NCBI GenBank assembly: GCA_030835745.1
Contig: JAUROA010000028.1
Span: forward strand, 1 to 56,936
Direction: 5' to 3'
Origin: Alphaproteobacteria bacterium
GTDB taxonomy: Bacteria > Pseudomonadota > Alphaproteobacteria > Rickettsiales > UBA1997
DNA: 56,936 bases
Part shown: piece by piece, positions 54,090-56,440 of the stretch
How the letters are laid out: each line of letters opens with the position of its first letter
Position numbering within the stretch: position 1 is the stretch's first letter
The notes under the pieces: generated by a model
What the model saw: the letters and a program-made list of their open reading frames with translations, nothing else
Told to the model about the DNA's origin: nothing
Databases searched by the model: none
Made by a program: the position numbers and the translations under genes

Positions 54090-54848
54090 ATGACATTAAA
54101 AAAATTATTTCATTGTGATAATGGCAATATAAATAGCGATATAGCTATATTATGGCTTCATGGTTGGGGGCAAAATCATAACTCTTTTTTGGCGCTATCA
54201 ACTTATTTTGATCAATATCATAATATTTTGATCGATTTTCCTGGATTTGGGCAGTCATATACCCCAGAGACAATATTATCAGTTGCTGACTATGCTGATG
54301 TTATTTCAGATATTATAAATAAATATAACAAAAAAATCTTTATTGTGGGACACTCTTTTGGCTGCAGGGTGGCAATGAAATATTGCGCATTAAAAGAATC
54401 TAAACCTAATGGGATTATTTTAATCAGCCCTGCAGGAATAAGAAAAAAAAGATCAATTTTCTTTAAAATAAAAGCTATATTGCTTAAAAAATCAGCACAA
54501 ATTGTTGGGCATTTTGATAAAATTTTTAAAACCAAAATCAAAGAAAGATTTTCCAATAATTTTGGTAGCCCAGACTATAAAAATGCTAAAGGAATAATGA
54601 AAAAAATATTTGTCAAAACTATTAGCGAAGATTTATCAGAAGTGGCAAAAAAAATTACAGATCAAGTCTTAATAATCAATGGAGTTGAAGATAAAGAAAC
54701 TTCTATAGAAATGGCAGAGAAATTTAATAAATTAATTACAAATTCATGCTTAATAAAACTAGATAATTTCGATCATTATAATATATTAACAAGTGGTAAA
54801 TTTCAACTTCAAAATATAATTACAAACTTTATCAAAAATAATAAATAA
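54090..54848 (+). CDS. Alpha/beta-fold serine hydrolase
   Basis: HGWG oxyanion region, nucleophile elbow GHSFG, C-terminal DH; 252 aa. Confidence 0.75.
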   Translation: MTLKKLFHCDNGNINSDIAILWLHGWGQNHNSFLALSTYFDQYHNILIDFPGFGQSYTPETILSVADYADVISDIINKYNKKIFIVGHSFGCRVAMKYCALKESKPNGIILISPAGIRKKRSIFFKIKAILLKKSAQIVGHFDKIFKTKIKERFSNNFGSPDYKNAKGIMKKIFVKTISEDLSEVAKKITDQVLIINGVEDKETSIEMAEKFNKLITNSCLIKLDNFDHYNILTSGKFQLQNIITNFIKNNK

Positions 54849-56440
54849 TGACATTAATCACTCTTCATTATCTATATCTATTAATATTACTTATCTTTGC
54901 TATTAAGCGTACTTTAATATTTGCTCACTTTTTTCAACAAGAAGAATATGATAATATCAGATTCTTTAAAAACAGCATAATTAACATCAACCTTATTGAC
55001 AAAAAACTATCCGCAACATTAATCGCAATAATAACATTATATATCATAGCCCAGGATAATATGGTTATTGCAATGTCAATATTAGCATTACTATTTTTTG
55101 CTATTAAGCAAAAAAATCCTCTATCTAAAGCCAATAAAAAGCCACTTATATTAACCCAAAGAATGAAAAAAATATTAACGCTAACTTTTTTACTTATAAT
55201 TTTAGCTATTTCTGCTATTTTATTAAATATAAATAATTTTATAAAATTAACTTTATTTTCAATAATTATAATTCATGCCATACCTTATGCTTTAATTATC
55301 TCGAATTCAATTTTATTACCATATGAAAAATTGCTTCAAAATAAACTCCTTAATCTAGCAAAAAATAAAATTAGATCGTTAAAGCCAATAGTAATTGCCA
55401 TTACTGGCTCATATGGCAAAACTTCAACCAAACATATATTAAATCATATTTTATCTTTTGCAAAACCAACATTATGCACTCCTGGAAGCGTTAATACTCC
55501 CATGGGGATAACCAGGATCATTCGTGAAAAATTATCCAAAGATCATATTTATTTTATTGTGGAAATGGGGGCCTATAAAATTGGGTCAATTGCAAAATTA
55601 TGCCAATTAACACCGCCTGACCATAGTGCTATTACAGCAATAGGGAATGCTCATTATGAGAGGTTTAAAACAATAGATAATGTTGCTAAGGCAAAATTTG
55701 AAATTAATGACGCATTAGATAAAGACCATAAAATGTGCTTTATAAATAGCGACAATATTGACGATAAATATATTAAGCAATATGGCAAAAATATTGTAAA
55801 AATTGGGCATAATGGCGATTATCAGATATCTGACATTTCTCTAGATAAAAATGGTACCGAATTTTCGATAATTATTAATAATAAAAAGCATAAAATTAAA
55901 TGCCCCTTATATGGCAAACATCATGCAAGCAACATTGCCATTGCAATATCAATTGCCCATAAATTGGGATATGATATTGATATGATAAAAACTGCTTTAA
56001 AATCAACCCCACAAATTTCTCATCGCCTTGAAGTAAAAAAGAGCAATAATAGCCCTATAATAATTGATGATTCTTATAACTCAAACCCTGATGGATTCAT
56101 GAACGCTCTAGATATCCTTAAATTGTTCAAAAAAGATGATAATCGATTAATATTAGTTACACCCGGAATGATTGAACTTGGAGATCTACATGACAAACTT
56201 CATCATGAGGTAGCCCAAAAAGCCTCTAAAATTATTGATTATGCATTAATAATTAAACCCGATAGAGTCAGAGAGTTTATTAGTAGCCTTAAGGCATCGA
56301 GATTGCCAAATCAAAGAGTAATAGAATTTGAAGACTTTAATTCAGCAAAGCAATGGATAAAAGATAATACAGACTCTGATGATGTAATTTTATATGAAAA
56401 TGATTTACCAGATCTATTTGAAAATCAAATAAAATTCTAG
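54848..56440 (+). CDS. MurF-like Mur ligase with an N-terminal multi-TM domain
   Basis: About 5 hydrophobic helices in aa 1-165, followed by P-loop ITGSYGKTSTK and the MurF-type C-domain signature DDSYNSNPDGF. One-base overlap with the hydrolase stop. Confidence 0.7.
   Translation: MTLITLHYLYLLILLIFAIKRTLIFAHFFQQEEYDNIRFFKNSIININLIDKKLSATLIAIITLYIIAQDNMVIAMSILALLFFAIKQKNPLSKANKKPLILTQRMKKILTLTFLLIILAISAILLNINNFIKLTLFSIIIIHAIPYALIISNSILLPYEKLLQNKLLNLAKNKIRSLKPIVIAITGSYGKTSTKHILNHILSFAKPTLCTPGSVNTPMGITRIIREKLSKDHIYFIVEMGAYKIGSIAKLCQLTPPDHSAITAIGNAHYERFKTIDNVAKAKFEINDALDKDHKMCFINSDNIDDKYIKQYGKNIVKIGHNGDYQISDISLDKNGTEFSIIINNKKHKIKCPLYGKHHASNIAIAISIAHKLGYDIDMIKTALKSTPQISHRLEVKKSNNSPIIIDDSYNSNPDGFMNALDILKLFKKDDNRLILVTPGMIELGDLHDKLHHEVAQKASKIIDYALIIKPDRVREFISSLKASRLPNQRVIEFEDFNSAKQWIKDNTDSDDVILYENDLPDLFENQIKF

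What the first reader, a model, noticed from the sequence alone, without database searches (positions are those of the whole stretch)
54090..56440. Membrane-anchored MurF-like ligase translationally coupled to an alpha/beta hydrolase, outside any dcw context
Seen: ORF 54848-56440 has a complete MurF-type ligase body, with P-loop ITGSYGKTSTK at about 55401-55430 and the C-domain signature DDSYNSNPDGF. The cytosolic N-domain that binds the UDP-MurNAc-tripeptide nucleotide in MurF is replaced. In its place are about 150 aa holding roughly five hydrophobic helices (LLILLIFAI, LIAIITLYIIA, VIAMSILALLFFAI, LTLTFLLIILAISAILL, LFSIIIIHAIPYALII). Its ATG shares a base with the stop of a 252-aa Ser hydrolase (GHSFG), and that hydrolase starts 7 nt after the VirB6-like giant. 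I saw no murE, mraY, ddl or fts genes anywhere in the 57 kb. Established: Mur-ligase-fold enzymes outside peptidoglycan precursor synthesis (CapB/PgsB of the membrane PgsBCA complex, cyanophycin synthetase, MurT, FolC) build other amide-linked products. Inference: this pair may build or edit a membrane-proximal peptide or amide-linked envelope component rather than act as housekeeping MurF. Caveat: genes are tightly packed throughout this window, so adjacency alone is weak evidence of shared function.
Basis: partly seen in the sequence, partly recalled or inferred. Interest (0 to 1): 0.7.

Follow-up and report, generated by a model that had tools for sequence, protein, structure and literature searches.

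The report
Membrane-anchored MurF with esterase partner
This gene pair is a membrane-anchored form of the ordinary cell-wall enzyme MurF plus a conserved serine esterase, an arrangement found in many bacterial phyla and already noted in Helicobacter and Campylobacter; it is not a new envelope pathway, although the esterase's role is still unknown.

Summary
ORF 54848-56440 encodes a MurF-type ligase body behind a five-helix membrane domain. Its start overlaps the stop of a 252-aa Ser-Asp-His hydrolase, and the window holds no dcw genes.

The interpretation (a non-housekeeping amide ligase) is not supported. The ligase belongs to a large monophyletic MurF subfamily found in at least ten phyla: at least 591 species genomes and 1,424 clusters at 50% identity.

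In 16 of 80 related loci the pair lies in or beside a dcw cluster that has murC, murD and murE but no canonical murF. In Poribacteria and in a 48%-identical relative it fills the murF slot next to mraY. Ddl is adjacent in 60 of 80 loci.

The hydrolase partnership holds in both directions: 74 of 80 loci from the ligase side, 5 of 5 from the hydrolase side.

Published work reports four N-terminal TM domains in essential H. pylori MurF, and a ddl / alpha-beta hydrolase (possibly essential) / murF row in C. jejuni.

Most likely this is the organism's working D-Ala-D-Ala-adding enzyme, tethered to the membrane. Still open: the esterase's role, the function of the conserved cytoplasmic loops, and whether this genome also has a canonical murF.

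The parts
54090..54848 (+). EstV-type alpha/beta serine hydrolase (252 aa), conserved partner of the ligase
   Evidence: Pfam Abhydrolase_1, Hydrolase_4 and Abhydrolase_6. Best NCBIfam hit is the EstV family lipase at 130 bits versus 51 for the next family, below the 300-bit cutoff. Ser89, Asp201 and His229 are invariant (His24, Gly25, Trp26 too; Gly27 in >=90%) in 49-64 partners. AF2 pLDDT 95.4; nearest folds are small-molecule carboxylesterases.
54348..54362 (+). GHSFG nucleophile elbow (Ser89) of the hydrolase
   Evidence: Ser89 is invariant in 64 aligned partners and in alignments A2 and A4.
54846..54850 (+). TAATG stop/start overlap between hydrolase and ligase
   Evidence: Read directly. 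Overlaps of 4 nt or 1 nt are the commonest spacing in 62 adjacent pairs by my own ORF calls.
54848..56440 (+). Membrane-anchored MurF-subfamily ligase (530 aa)
54848..55381 (+). N-terminal membrane domain (residues 1-178): five TM helices plus a long linker helix; takes the place of the canonical MurF domain 1
   Evidence: AF2 helices at 2-31, 36-45, 52-64, 70-87, 104-125, 131-143 and 145-178. Positive-inside pattern. No Pfam, PDB-sequence or Foldseek match to this region. An N-domain profile finds 1,424 clusters, in all listed hits but two partial ones starting at the N-terminus, with complete proteins of ~505-600 aa.
54932..54952 (+). FQQEEYD motif (residues 29-35) in cytoplasmic loop 1
   Evidence: Q30, Q31 and Y34 are invariant and E32 and D35 at least 90% conserved in 32 homologs. 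The motif is present in 30 of 73 members of the wider family.
55136..55171 (+). Basic motif KKxLxxTxRxKK/R (residues 97-108) in cytoplasmic loop 3
   Evidence: K97, K98, L100, T103 and R105 are invariant in 32 homologs. A relaxed form of the motif is in 57 of 73 of the wider family.
55400..55954 (+). Mur ligase middle (ATP-binding) domain, including the P-loop TGSYGKTS (55403-55426)
   Evidence: Pfam PF08245, E 7.5e-37. P-loop, Glu239, His269 and Lys283 are all retained.
56021..56392 (+). Mur ligase C-terminal domain, including DDSYNSNP
   Evidence: Pfam PF02875, E 2.1e-13. R393, D408, N411, E443 and G445 are retained.
56396..56422 (+). Subfamily-specific C-terminal motif ENDLPDLFE (residues 517-525), in place of the canonical KG(S) motif
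   Evidence: Invariant N518, D519, L520, P521, D522 and E525. NDLPD is present in 73 of 77 TM-type proteins and absent from canonical MurF.

Best explanation
The ligase is a bona fide MurF. It adds D-Ala-D-Ala, made by Ddl, to the UDP-MurNAc-tripeptide in an ATP-dependent reaction through an acyl-phosphate intermediate. It belongs to a distinct, widespread subfamily in which the soluble N-terminal domain 1 has been replaced by a five-helix inner-membrane domain (N-terminus outside, catalytic body in the cytoplasm).

In this organism, which makes peptidoglycan, it is most likely the working (housekeeping) MurF. The last cytoplasmic step would then take place at the membrane next to MraY.

The upstream EstV-type serine hydrolase is a dedicated, translationally coupled partner with an intact catalytic triad. 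Its role is not known. My best guess is an esterase-type accessory or quality-control activity on a precursor, or a docking partner on the conserved cytoplasmic loops.

Shown here: domain identity, topology logic, family distribution, synteny, pairing. Inferred: the substrate, the housekeeping status in this genome, and any role of the hydrolase.
For: MurF identity of the ligase body:
- NCBIfam TIGR01143 murF scores 232.5 bits, against 92 for murC, the next non-MurF family.
- The PDB profile search and Foldseek both put MurF structures first, over ~360 aligned columns.
- In an NJ tree the TM type is monophyletic (187 of 200 bootstraps) and groups with canonical MurF to the exclusion of MurC/D/E (185 of 200).
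- 22 of 31 residues invariant in the M and C domains of canonical MurF are kept in at least 90% of TM-type proteins. Nine of these are MurF-specific.

Context in relatives:
- A Ddl-type ligase is adjacent in 60 of 80 loci.
- 16 of 80 loci are dcw-linked. All 80 loci together hold 14 murC, 13 murD, 11 murE and only one canonical murF, in L026, which is not dcw-linked.
- Micavibrio-like loci read ftsI-murE-c14-mraY-murD-ftsW-murG-murC-murB-[TM-murF, hydrolase]-ddl-ftsQAZ.
- Poribacteria read murE-hydrolase-TM-murF-ddl-mraY.
- L088, with a 48%-identical ligase, reads ddl-hydrolase-TM-murF-mraY-murD-ftsW-murG-murC.

The window organism makes peptidoglycan: PBP1A, MreB and MreC are present.

Literature:
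- H. pylori MurF has four predicted N-terminal TM domains and is called an inner-membrane protein (PMC9448923).
- It is described as essential (PMC9507126) and is 1485 bp long (PMC6501431).
- In C. jejuni, Ddl Cj0798c, alpha/beta hydrolase Cj0796c (a deletion could not be obtained) and MurF Cj0795c lie together (PMC5530802).

Pairing.
Against: - The canonical N-domain that contacts the UDP moiety is absent, and the protein falls below NCBIfam's murF cutoff (232.5 < 288.6).
- An Asn that is invariant in canonical MurF and in MurC/D/E (E. coli N183) is Ala or Ser in the TM type.
- In L026 a canonical MurF sits in the same gene row as the TM type, so the two can co-exist.
- Large free-living hosts such as Labrys probably also have a canonical murF (not checked).
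- VanX-like dipeptidases sit next to the pair in L003, L026, L028 and L099.
- In the window itself neither ddl nor any dcw gene is nearby, and the rest of the genome could not be searched.
- Membership of the H. pylori and C. jejuni MurF in this exact subfamily was not verified by sequence.
Confidence: 0.7

Rival explanations
1. Accessory second MurF. The genome also has a canonical MurF, and the TM form with its esterase serves a specialised branch of precursor synthesis. Examples would be adding an alternative dipeptide or depsipeptide (D-Ala-D-X, Van-like), or re-completing recycled or trimmed stem peptides at the membrane.
For: L026 carries a tandem Ddl-Ddl fusion, a canonical MurF (333 bits, above the 288.6 cutoff), a VanX-like M15 dipeptidase, the hydrolase and the TM-MurF in one row. 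VanX-like genes also flank the pair in L003, L028 and L099. The subfamily occurs in large genomes (Labrys 7 Mb, Kordiimonas 4.2 Mb). Its tree is incongruent with taxonomy, as expected for a transferable module. An esterase would suit a depsipeptide (ester) bond.
Against: Eleven dcw clusters that contain both murE and mraY have no canonical murF but do have the TM form. The window comes from a compact, gene-dense genome, where a redundant copy is less likely to be kept. The Ddl partners pass or nearly pass ordinary D-Ala-D-Ala ligase models rather than the VanA or VanC exception models.
Confidence: 0.17
2. MurF chemistry on a lipid-linked substrate. The membrane domain and its basic cytoplasmic loop bind undecaprenyl-pyrophosphoryl-MurNAc(-GlcNAc)-tripeptide, so D-Ala-D-Ala is added after MraY rather than before it.
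For: The UDP-binding domain 1 is replaced by an integral membrane domain. Its cytoplasmic loops carry invariant basic and acidic motifs (KKxLxxTxRxKR, FQQEEYD) that could bind a pyrophosphate or sugar headgroup. The N-domain is found only in this architecture.
Against: There is no direct evidence. The motifs could equally bind UDP, MraY or the hydrolase. QQEEY is present in only 30 of 73 members of the wider family. Gene order puts the TM form immediately before mraY, as in the canonical pathway. Parsimony favours the known substrate.
Confidence: 0.07
3. One reading: a Mur-fold ligase unrelated to peptidoglycan precursor synthesis (like CapB/PgsB, cyanophycin synthetase, MurT or FolC) that, together with the hydrolase, builds or edits another amide-linked membrane-proximal envelope component.
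For: The gene lies outside any dcw context in this window. The N-domain is replaced by a membrane domain. The score is below the murF family cutoff.
Against: Scores to cyanophycin synthetase (34 bits), FolC (20 bits), Mpl (48 bits) and the pseudomurein ligases are far below the MurF score of 232 bits. The protein is placed inside the MurF clade and MurF-specific residues are retained. Ddl adjacency and dcw embedding in relatives are pervasive.
Confidence: 0.05

Closest known systems
Helicobacter pylori MurF (HP0740) and Campylobacter jejuni MurF (Cj0795c) with their neighbouring alpha/beta hydrolase (EstV / Cj0796c) and Ddl
   Same: A longer-than-canonical MurF (HP0740 is 1485 bp) with predicted N-terminal TM domains, described as an essential inner-membrane protein (PMC9448923, PMC9507126, PMC6501431). 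A ddl / alpha-beta hydrolase / murF gene row in C. jejuni, where deletion of the hydrolase could not be obtained (PMC5530802). The window hydrolase's best NCBIfam match by far is the EstV family.
   Different: Four TM helices are reported for H. pylori against five inferred here. The window gene has no adjacent ddl. Homology of the N-domains and presence of the ENDLPD motif in the Campylobacterota proteins were not tested, because no sequence could be obtained. That EstV is HP0739, next to HP0740, is from my memory and not from a tool.
Canonical MurF (E. coli b0086; PDB 1gg4, 4qf5, 4cvm, 3zl8)
   Same: Middle and C-terminal domains: 29% identity over 287 residues with E. coli MurF. Top Foldseek hits. 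P-loop, Mg/ATP residues, the Lys aligned with E. coli K202, and the DDxYNxNP and ELG motifs are retained.
   Different: No domain 1: the seven residues invariant in the canonical N-domain have no counterpart. Asn183 (E. coli numbering) is Ala or Ser. The C-terminal KG(S) motif is replaced by ENDLPD. The protein is an integral membrane protein and is always paired with a serine hydrolase.
EstV family lipase (NCBIfam NF058580; lipolytic family V carboxylesterases)
   Same: Full-length match to profile positions 21-228 of 230, an intact Ser-Asp-His triad and HGWG oxyanion motif, and a fold like small-molecule esterases. EstV hydrolyses short-chain p-nitrophenyl esters in vitro (PMC3741291, citing Ruiz et al. 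2007).
   Different: 130 bits is far below the 300-bit equivalog cutoff. The physiological substrate is unknown for either protein.
Accessory MurF/Ddl/VanX sets of glycopeptide-resistance type clusters
   Same: Some relatives (L026, L003, L028, L099) combine the pair with extra Ddl copies and a VanX-like M15 dipeptidase.
   Different: The window has none of these neighbours. The Ddl partners score best against ordinary D-Ala-D-Ala ligase models. No VanH-like dehydrogenase was seen.
CapB/PgsB, cyanophycin synthetase, MurT, FolC
   Same: The shared Mur-ligase M and C fold.
   Different: Only weak profile matches (cyanophycin synthetase 34 bits, FolC 20 bits). The protein clusters with MurF instead.

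Membership tests
MurF (UDP-MurNAc-tripeptide:D-Ala-D-Ala ligase) | Mur ligase middle domain with P-loop, plus the C-terminal domain | tested here: met
   PF08245 E 7.5e-37 and PF02875 E 2.1e-13.
MurF (UDP-MurNAc-tripeptide:D-Ala-D-Ala ligase) | Closest to MurF rather than to MurC/D/E, Mpl, CphA or FolC, by profile, fold and tree | tested here: met
   murF 232.5 bits versus at most 92 bits for non-MurF families. Foldseek ranks 1-10 are all MurF. The TM + canonical MurF clade has 185 of 200 bootstraps.
MurF (UDP-MurNAc-tripeptide:D-Ala-D-Ala ligase) | Residues invariant in the M and C domains of canonical MurF, including MurF-specific ones | tested here: met
   22 of 31 are kept in at least 90% of 25 TM-type sequences, 9 of them MurF-specific. 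Exceptions are the N183 equivalent (Ala/Ser) and the C-terminal KG motif.
MurF (UDP-MurNAc-tripeptide:D-Ala-D-Ala ligase) | N-terminal domain 1 (UDP/uracil-binding alpha/beta domain) | tested here: not met
   No hit to an N-domain. The murF profile is matched only from position 60 of 418. PDB and Foldseek alignments start at about residue 165. The seven canonical N-domain invariants have no counterpart.
MurF (UDP-MurNAc-tripeptide:D-Ala-D-Ala ligase) | Score above the curated NCBIfam TIGR01143 cutoff | tested here: not met
   232.5 < 288.6 bits. The shortfall is explained by the missing N-domain.
MurF (UDP-MurNAc-tripeptide:D-Ala-D-Ala ligase) | Genomic association with ddl, murE and mraY | tested here: inconclusive
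   Not met in the window. Strongly met in relatives: Ddl adjacent in 60 of 80 loci, and the pair in the murF slot in Poribacteria and L088.
MurF (UDP-MurNAc-tripeptide:D-Ala-D-Ala ligase) | Enzyme activity: ATP-dependent addition of D-Ala-D-Ala to UDP-MurNAc-tripeptide | not testable with these tools
   Needs a biochemical assay or complementation.
Membrane-anchored MurF as described for H. pylori | Several N-terminal transmembrane helices preceding the ligase body | tested here: met
   Five hydrophobic helices, AF2 pLDDT 91, positive-inside pattern. The literature reports four TM domains in H. pylori (PMC9448923).
Membrane-anchored MurF as described for H. pylori | Adjacent EstV-type alpha/beta hydrolase (and usually Ddl) | tested here: met
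   The hydrolase overlaps the ligase start. EstV is its best family. C. jejuni has the same row (PMC5530802). Ddl is not adjacent in the window.
Membrane-anchored MurF as described for H. pylori | Sequence homology of the membrane domain and the C-terminal ENDLPD motif to HP0740 / Cj0795c | not tested
   No Campylobacterota MurF sequence could be obtained.
EstV family lipase (NF058580) | Alpha/beta fold with a Ser-Asp-His triad and a full-length profile match | tested here: met
   S89, D201 and H229 are invariant. Profile positions 21-228 of 230 are matched. All 49 partners match.
EstV family lipase (NF058580) | Score above the curated equivalog cutoff | tested here: not met
   130.1 < 300 bits. 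It is a relative, not an equivalog.
CapB/PgsB, cyanophycin synthetase, FolC, Mpl, pseudomurein ligases | Best profile match to that family | tested here: not met
   Cyanophycin synthetase 34 bits, FolC 20 bits, Mpl 48 bits, pMur ligases 29-54 bits, all far below MurF.

The most novel reading that the evidence does not exclude
The membrane-anchored MurF and its obligate serine esterase form a membrane complex that carries out a step absent from the textbook pathway. Possibilities are D-Ala-D-Ala addition to a lipid-linked tripeptide precursor, or esterase-dependent editing or priming of the precursor at the MraY hand-off. In the many lineages that lack a canonical MurF, the last 'cytoplasmic' step of peptidoglycan synthesis would then be organised differently, and the esterase would be a new essential cell-wall enzyme.
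Probability: 0.12. Interest if true: 0.75.

Novelty: new member of a known kind. Interest (0 to 1): 0.35.

Why it matters
For this window, the result turns an apparent oddity into ordinary cell-wall biology: the organism's D-Ala-D-Ala-adding enzyme in its membrane-anchored form.

More broadly, the survey shows that this form is not a Helicobacter curiosity. It is a coherent MurF subfamily in at least ten phyla, often the only murF in the dcw cluster, and almost always coupled to a catalytically intact esterase whose function nobody knows. One study suggests that esterase may be essential in C. jejuni.

A conserved, possibly essential partner of MurF in pathogens such as H. pylori and C. jejuni would be a worthwhile target for ordinary genetic and biochemical study. 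Automated annotation also handles these genes inconsistently ('Mur ligase family protein', 'pimeloyl-ACP methyl ester carboxylesterase').

Tried and rejected
- **Hydrolase-ligase fusions in L003 (Labrys) and L011 (Blastochloris).** The 727- and 700-aa ORFs are spurious upstream extensions in high-GC DNA, with no hydrolase similarity in frame.
- **c14 as a MurF remnant.** This ~150-aa ORF lies between murE and mraY in Micavibrio-like loci. It has no Pfam hit and I saw no resemblance to MurF in its sequence.
- **Alpha/beta hydrolases after canonical ddl-murF in Listeria and a Stenotrophomonas replicon as the same partner family.** Rejected: no or only weak EstV match, 16% identity, fold-level similarity only.
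- **Plasmid-borne TM-type copies.** None found; all 60 plasmid hits are canonical MurF bodies covering 67% of the query or less.
- **A Ddl elsewhere in the window.** Only the CarB and propionyl-CoA carboxylase ATP-grasp domains match weakly.
- **The class IV aminotransferase at 47150-48016 as a D-Ala aminotransferase.** It sits next to a chorismate-binding enzyme, so it is probably PabC.
- **Primary papers.** Blair et al. 2018 (PMC6195823) and Ruiz et al. 2007 (PMC1855603) are not held. Locus-tag searches for HP0738 and HP0739 found nothing.
- **Geometry of the conserved loops relative to the active site.** Model coordinates are not exposed.
- **Fold search of the hydrolase.** It gave only generic carboxylesterases, MenH, BioH and monoacylglycerol lipases, with no clue to a specific substrate.
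- **Promoter and terminator scans.** Uninformative in this AT-rich DNA.
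Full report
**1. The observation**

The two ORFs are as described: hydrolase 54090-54848 (252 aa) and ligase 54848-56440 (530 aa), both on the + strand. The VirB6/TrbL-like 1305-aa ORF ends with TAA at 54080-54082, and the hydrolase ATG follows after 7 nt. The hydrolase stop and the ligase start overlap by one base, reading TAATG.

Pfam finds Mur_ligase_M (residues 185-369) and Mur_ligase_C (392-515) in the ligase, with no N-domain hit. It finds Abhydrolase_1, Hydrolase_4 and Abhydrolase_6 in the hydrolase.

In NCBIfam the best family for the ligase is murF (TIGR01143) at 232.5 bits. That is below the 288.6 cutoff because only profile positions 60-402 of 418 are matched. 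MurC, D, E, Mpl, cyanophycin synthetase and FolC all score far lower.

The first ~160 residues hold five hydrophobic segments. AlphaFold2, run with a 32-sequence alignment, models them as helices with high confidence (mean pLDDT 91.2, pTM 0.84). Across the alignment, loops 1 and 3 are rich in Lys and Arg (4.6 and 7.2 on average). Loops 2 and 4 are about five residues long and almost uncharged. That gives an N-out, five-TM topology with the ATP-dependent body in the cytoplasm.

tblastn with references for murC/D/E/F, mraY, murG, ftsW, murB, ddl and ftsQ/A/Z finds nothing in the 57 kb except this ligase.

**2. A large family, not a one-off**

A search of 5.8 billion proteins returns full-length relatives of 507-578 aa with 95-100% coverage. 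They are named 'Mur ligase family protein' or, automatically, 'murF', and come from Rickettsiales, Micavibrio and other Alphaproteobacteria.

They include Alphaproteobacteria (Kordiimonas, Labrys, Blastochloris, Micavibrio, Rickettsiales), Acidobacteriota, Bdellovibrionota, Cyanobacteria/Obscuribacterales, Chlamydiota, Poribacteria, Bacteroidales, Clostridia, Chloroflexia, Omnitrophota and Thiomargarita.

A profile of the membrane domain alone finds 1,424 clusters at 50% identity (561 at E <= 1e-10). In all listed hits but two partial ones the domain starts at the N-terminus. Complete proteins are about 505-600 aa, and the shorter hits look like contig-end fragments. The membrane module therefore appears dedicated to this architecture.

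Between the helices the domain carries polar motifs that are invariant among the 32 closest relatives: FQQEEYD (29-35), D51-K-K, and KKxLxxTxRxKR (97-108). All are on the cytoplasmic side. A subfamily-specific ENDLPDLxE lies at the C-terminus. In the wider family, NDLPD is near-universal (73 of 77), the basic loop is common (57 of 73), and QQEEY is restricted to a subgroup (30 of 73).

**3. The ligase body is MurF**

- A profile search of PDB sequences and a Foldseek search of the model both rank MurF structures first (4qf5, 3zl8, 4cvm, 1gg4, 2am1), over about 360 columns. Nothing matches the N-terminal bundle.
- I built a neighbour-joining tree of the M and C domains from 25 TM-type proteins of different phyla, 7 canonical MurF and 7 MurC/D/E. 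The TM type is monophyletic (187 of 200 bootstraps). TM plus canonical MurF form a clade that excludes MurC/D/E (185 of 200).
- Of 31 positions invariant in the M and C domains of the seven canonical MurF, 22 are kept in at least 90% of TM-type proteins. These include the P-loop, Glu239, His269, Lys283 and the DDxYNxNP and ELG motifs. Nine of the 22 are MurF-specific.
- The seven N-domain invariants have no counterpart. The Asn equivalent to E. coli N183 is Ala or Ser, and the C-terminal KG(S) motif is replaced by ENDLPD.

**4. Neighbourhoods decide the interpretation**

I called ORFs in the 80 loci and clustered them.

- The hydrolase lies directly upstream on the same strand in 74 of 80 loci by tblastn. 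The commonest spacing is a 4-nt or 1-nt overlap.
- A third partner, a ~400-aa Ddl-type ATP-grasp ligase, is present in 60 of 80 loci: at +1 in 37 and at -2 in 17. It passes ordinary D-Ala-D-Ala ligase models in L040 and nearly does in L002.
- Sixteen loci place the pair in or next to a dcw cluster.
- In seven Micavibrio-like alphaproteobacteria the order is ftsI-murE-[c14]-mraY-murD-ftsW-murG-murC-murB-[TM-murF, hydrolase, inverted]-ddl-ftsQ-ftsA-ftsZ.
- In five Poribacteria it is mraW-ftsL-ftsI-murE-hydrolase-TM-murF-ddl-mraY-murD-ftsW-murG-murC-murB.
- All 80 loci together hold 14 murC, 13 murD and 11 murE genes but only one canonical murF, in L026, which is not dcw-linked.
- Among the window's closest long-contig relatives, L088 (48% identity) reads ddl-hydrolase-TM-murF-mraY-murD-LysM-ftsW-murG-murC. 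L089 places the pair beside ftsQ-ftsA-ftsZ.

In these genomes the TM form sits where murF belongs and nothing else does. The window copy has lost that context. A VirB6-like giant and two tRNA genes lie where relatives such as L002 and L088 have ddl.

**5. The counter-example**

L026 (Bdellovibrionales) has, in one row, a tandem Ddl-Ddl fusion, a canonical full-length MurF (333 bits, above the cutoff), a VanX-like M15 dipeptidase, the hydrolase and the TM-MurF. VanX-like genes also flank the pair in L003 (Labrys), L028 and L099.

So in some, probably larger, genomes the TM form is a second copy. The possibility that the window organism also has a canonical murF elsewhere cannot be excluded. Only 1.4 kb beyond the window could be recovered.

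**6. The hydrolase**

Its best NCBIfam match is the EstV family lipase: 130 bits over nearly the whole profile, against 51 bits for the next family, but below the 300-bit equivalog cutoff. All 49 partner hydrolases tested match EstV.

Ser89, Asp201 and His229 are invariant, as are H24, G25 and W26 of the HGWG motif (G27 in at least 90%), D49, G52, G54, D162 and Y163.

The AF2 model (pLDDT 95.4) resembles capped small-molecule carboxylesterases, MenH, BioH and monoacylglycerol lipases. This gives no clue to a specific substrate.

The reciprocal test is clean. Five of five hydrolase homologs at 30-35% identity, on long contigs (Gimibacter soli, Candidatus Kentrum and three MAGs), are followed at once by a 520-540-aa Mur ligase with M and C domains only. 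Four of these carry the QQEEY and KKxLxxTxR motifs and four the NDLPD motif (L100 lacks the first two, L096 the third). Ddl is adjacent in two and a VanX-like gene in one.

**7. The literature**

[quoted passage not shown] 2018) and calls MurF an inner-membrane protein.
- PMC9507126 calls it an essential PG precursor enzyme within a Csd5-CcmA-MurF complex.
- PMC6501431 lists murF as HP0740 at 1485 bp, longer than a canonical murF.
- PMC5530802 reports that in C. jejuni 11168 MurF is Cj0795c and the neighbouring Cj0796c has an alpha/beta hydrolase fold. Ddl (Cj0798c) lies just upstream of Cj0796c. Attempts to delete Cj0796c failed, and its role is not established.
- PMC3741291 summarises EstV as a short-chain carboxylesterase in vitro.

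That EstV is HP0739, next to HP0740, is my recollection and not a tool result. I could not obtain a Campylobacterota MurF sequence, so one-family membership is inferred from architecture and synteny and was not tested. I found no paper describing the subfamily's wide distribution or its motifs.

**8. Conclusion**

The most likely reading (about 0.7) is a genuine D-Ala-D-Ala-adding MurF of the membrane-anchored subfamily, serving as the working MurF of a peptidoglycan-making alphaproteobacterium. PBP1A, MreB and MreC are in the window. It has a dedicated EstV-type esterase partner.

The rivals are:
- an accessory second MurF with altered specificity or a recycling role (about 0.17);
- action on a lipid-linked tripeptide (about 0.07);

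The finding is a new member of a known kind. What remains unknown, and gives it moderate interest, is what the conserved cytoplasmic loops bind and what the near-obligate esterase does.

Noticed in passing
window 54083-54098 and 54841-54856: The hydrolase and the ligase both start inside the same 16-nt string TAAATAATGACATTAA, and both proteins begin with MTL. The two translation-initiation contexts are identical.
   Followed up: no
window 49876-54082: tRNA-Ile, tRNA-Leu and a 1305-aa VirB6/TrbL-like ORF occupy the position where close relatives (L002, L088) have ddl directly upstream of the hydrolase. An insertion or rearrangement may have separated the pair from its usual partner.
   Followed up: partly
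L012, L014, L015, L017, L018, L025, L041 (e.g. L018 19313-19762, minus strand): A conserved ~150-aa protein with no Pfam match (c14) sits between murE and mraY, the usual murF slot, in seven Micavibrio-like dcw clusters.
   Followed up: partly
L026 4434-11548: A Bdellovibrionales MAG has a tandem Ddl-Ddl fusion (810 aa), a canonical MurF, a VanX-like M15 dipeptidase, the EstV-type hydrolase and the TM-MurF in one row. Both MurF types are side by side.
   Followed up: partly
L095 (Listeria monocytogenes NZ_LR134399.1) and L093 (Stenotrophomonas rhizophila CP031730.1): A canonical ddl-murF pair is followed by an alpha/beta-fold hydrolase that is not of the EstV type. This may be an independent, analogous association of MurF with a serine hydrolase.
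   Followed up: partly
L038 8475-9794: In one Poribacteria genome a UPF0236 (transposase-like) gene is inserted between the hydrolase and the TM-murF.
   Followed up: no
TM-MurF tree (loci L001-L080): The subfamily tree does not follow taxonomy: Acidobacteria group with Rhizobiales, and Thiomargarita and Synergistaceae with Clostridia. This suggests horizontal transfer of the module.
   Followed up: no
window 29528-30073 (minus strand): A HlyC-type RTX-toxin acyltransferase lies next to tRNA-Leu, with no RTX toxin gene visible among the annotated neighbours.
   Followed up: no
window 18545-19681; 41106-42641; 6277-7533: An ankyrin-repeat protein, a secretin, and a DAO-family FAD oxidoreductase (possibly a D-amino-acid dehydrogenase). 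Together with VirB6 and the low GC content, these fit a host-associated alphaproteobacterium that still keeps LeuA, IlvD, CarAB and PyrB.
   Followed up: no
window 47150-48016 and 45866-47149 (minus strand): The class IV aminotransferase sits next to a chorismate-binding enzyme. It is probably PabC paired with PabB rather than a D-alanine aminotransferase.
   Followed up: partly
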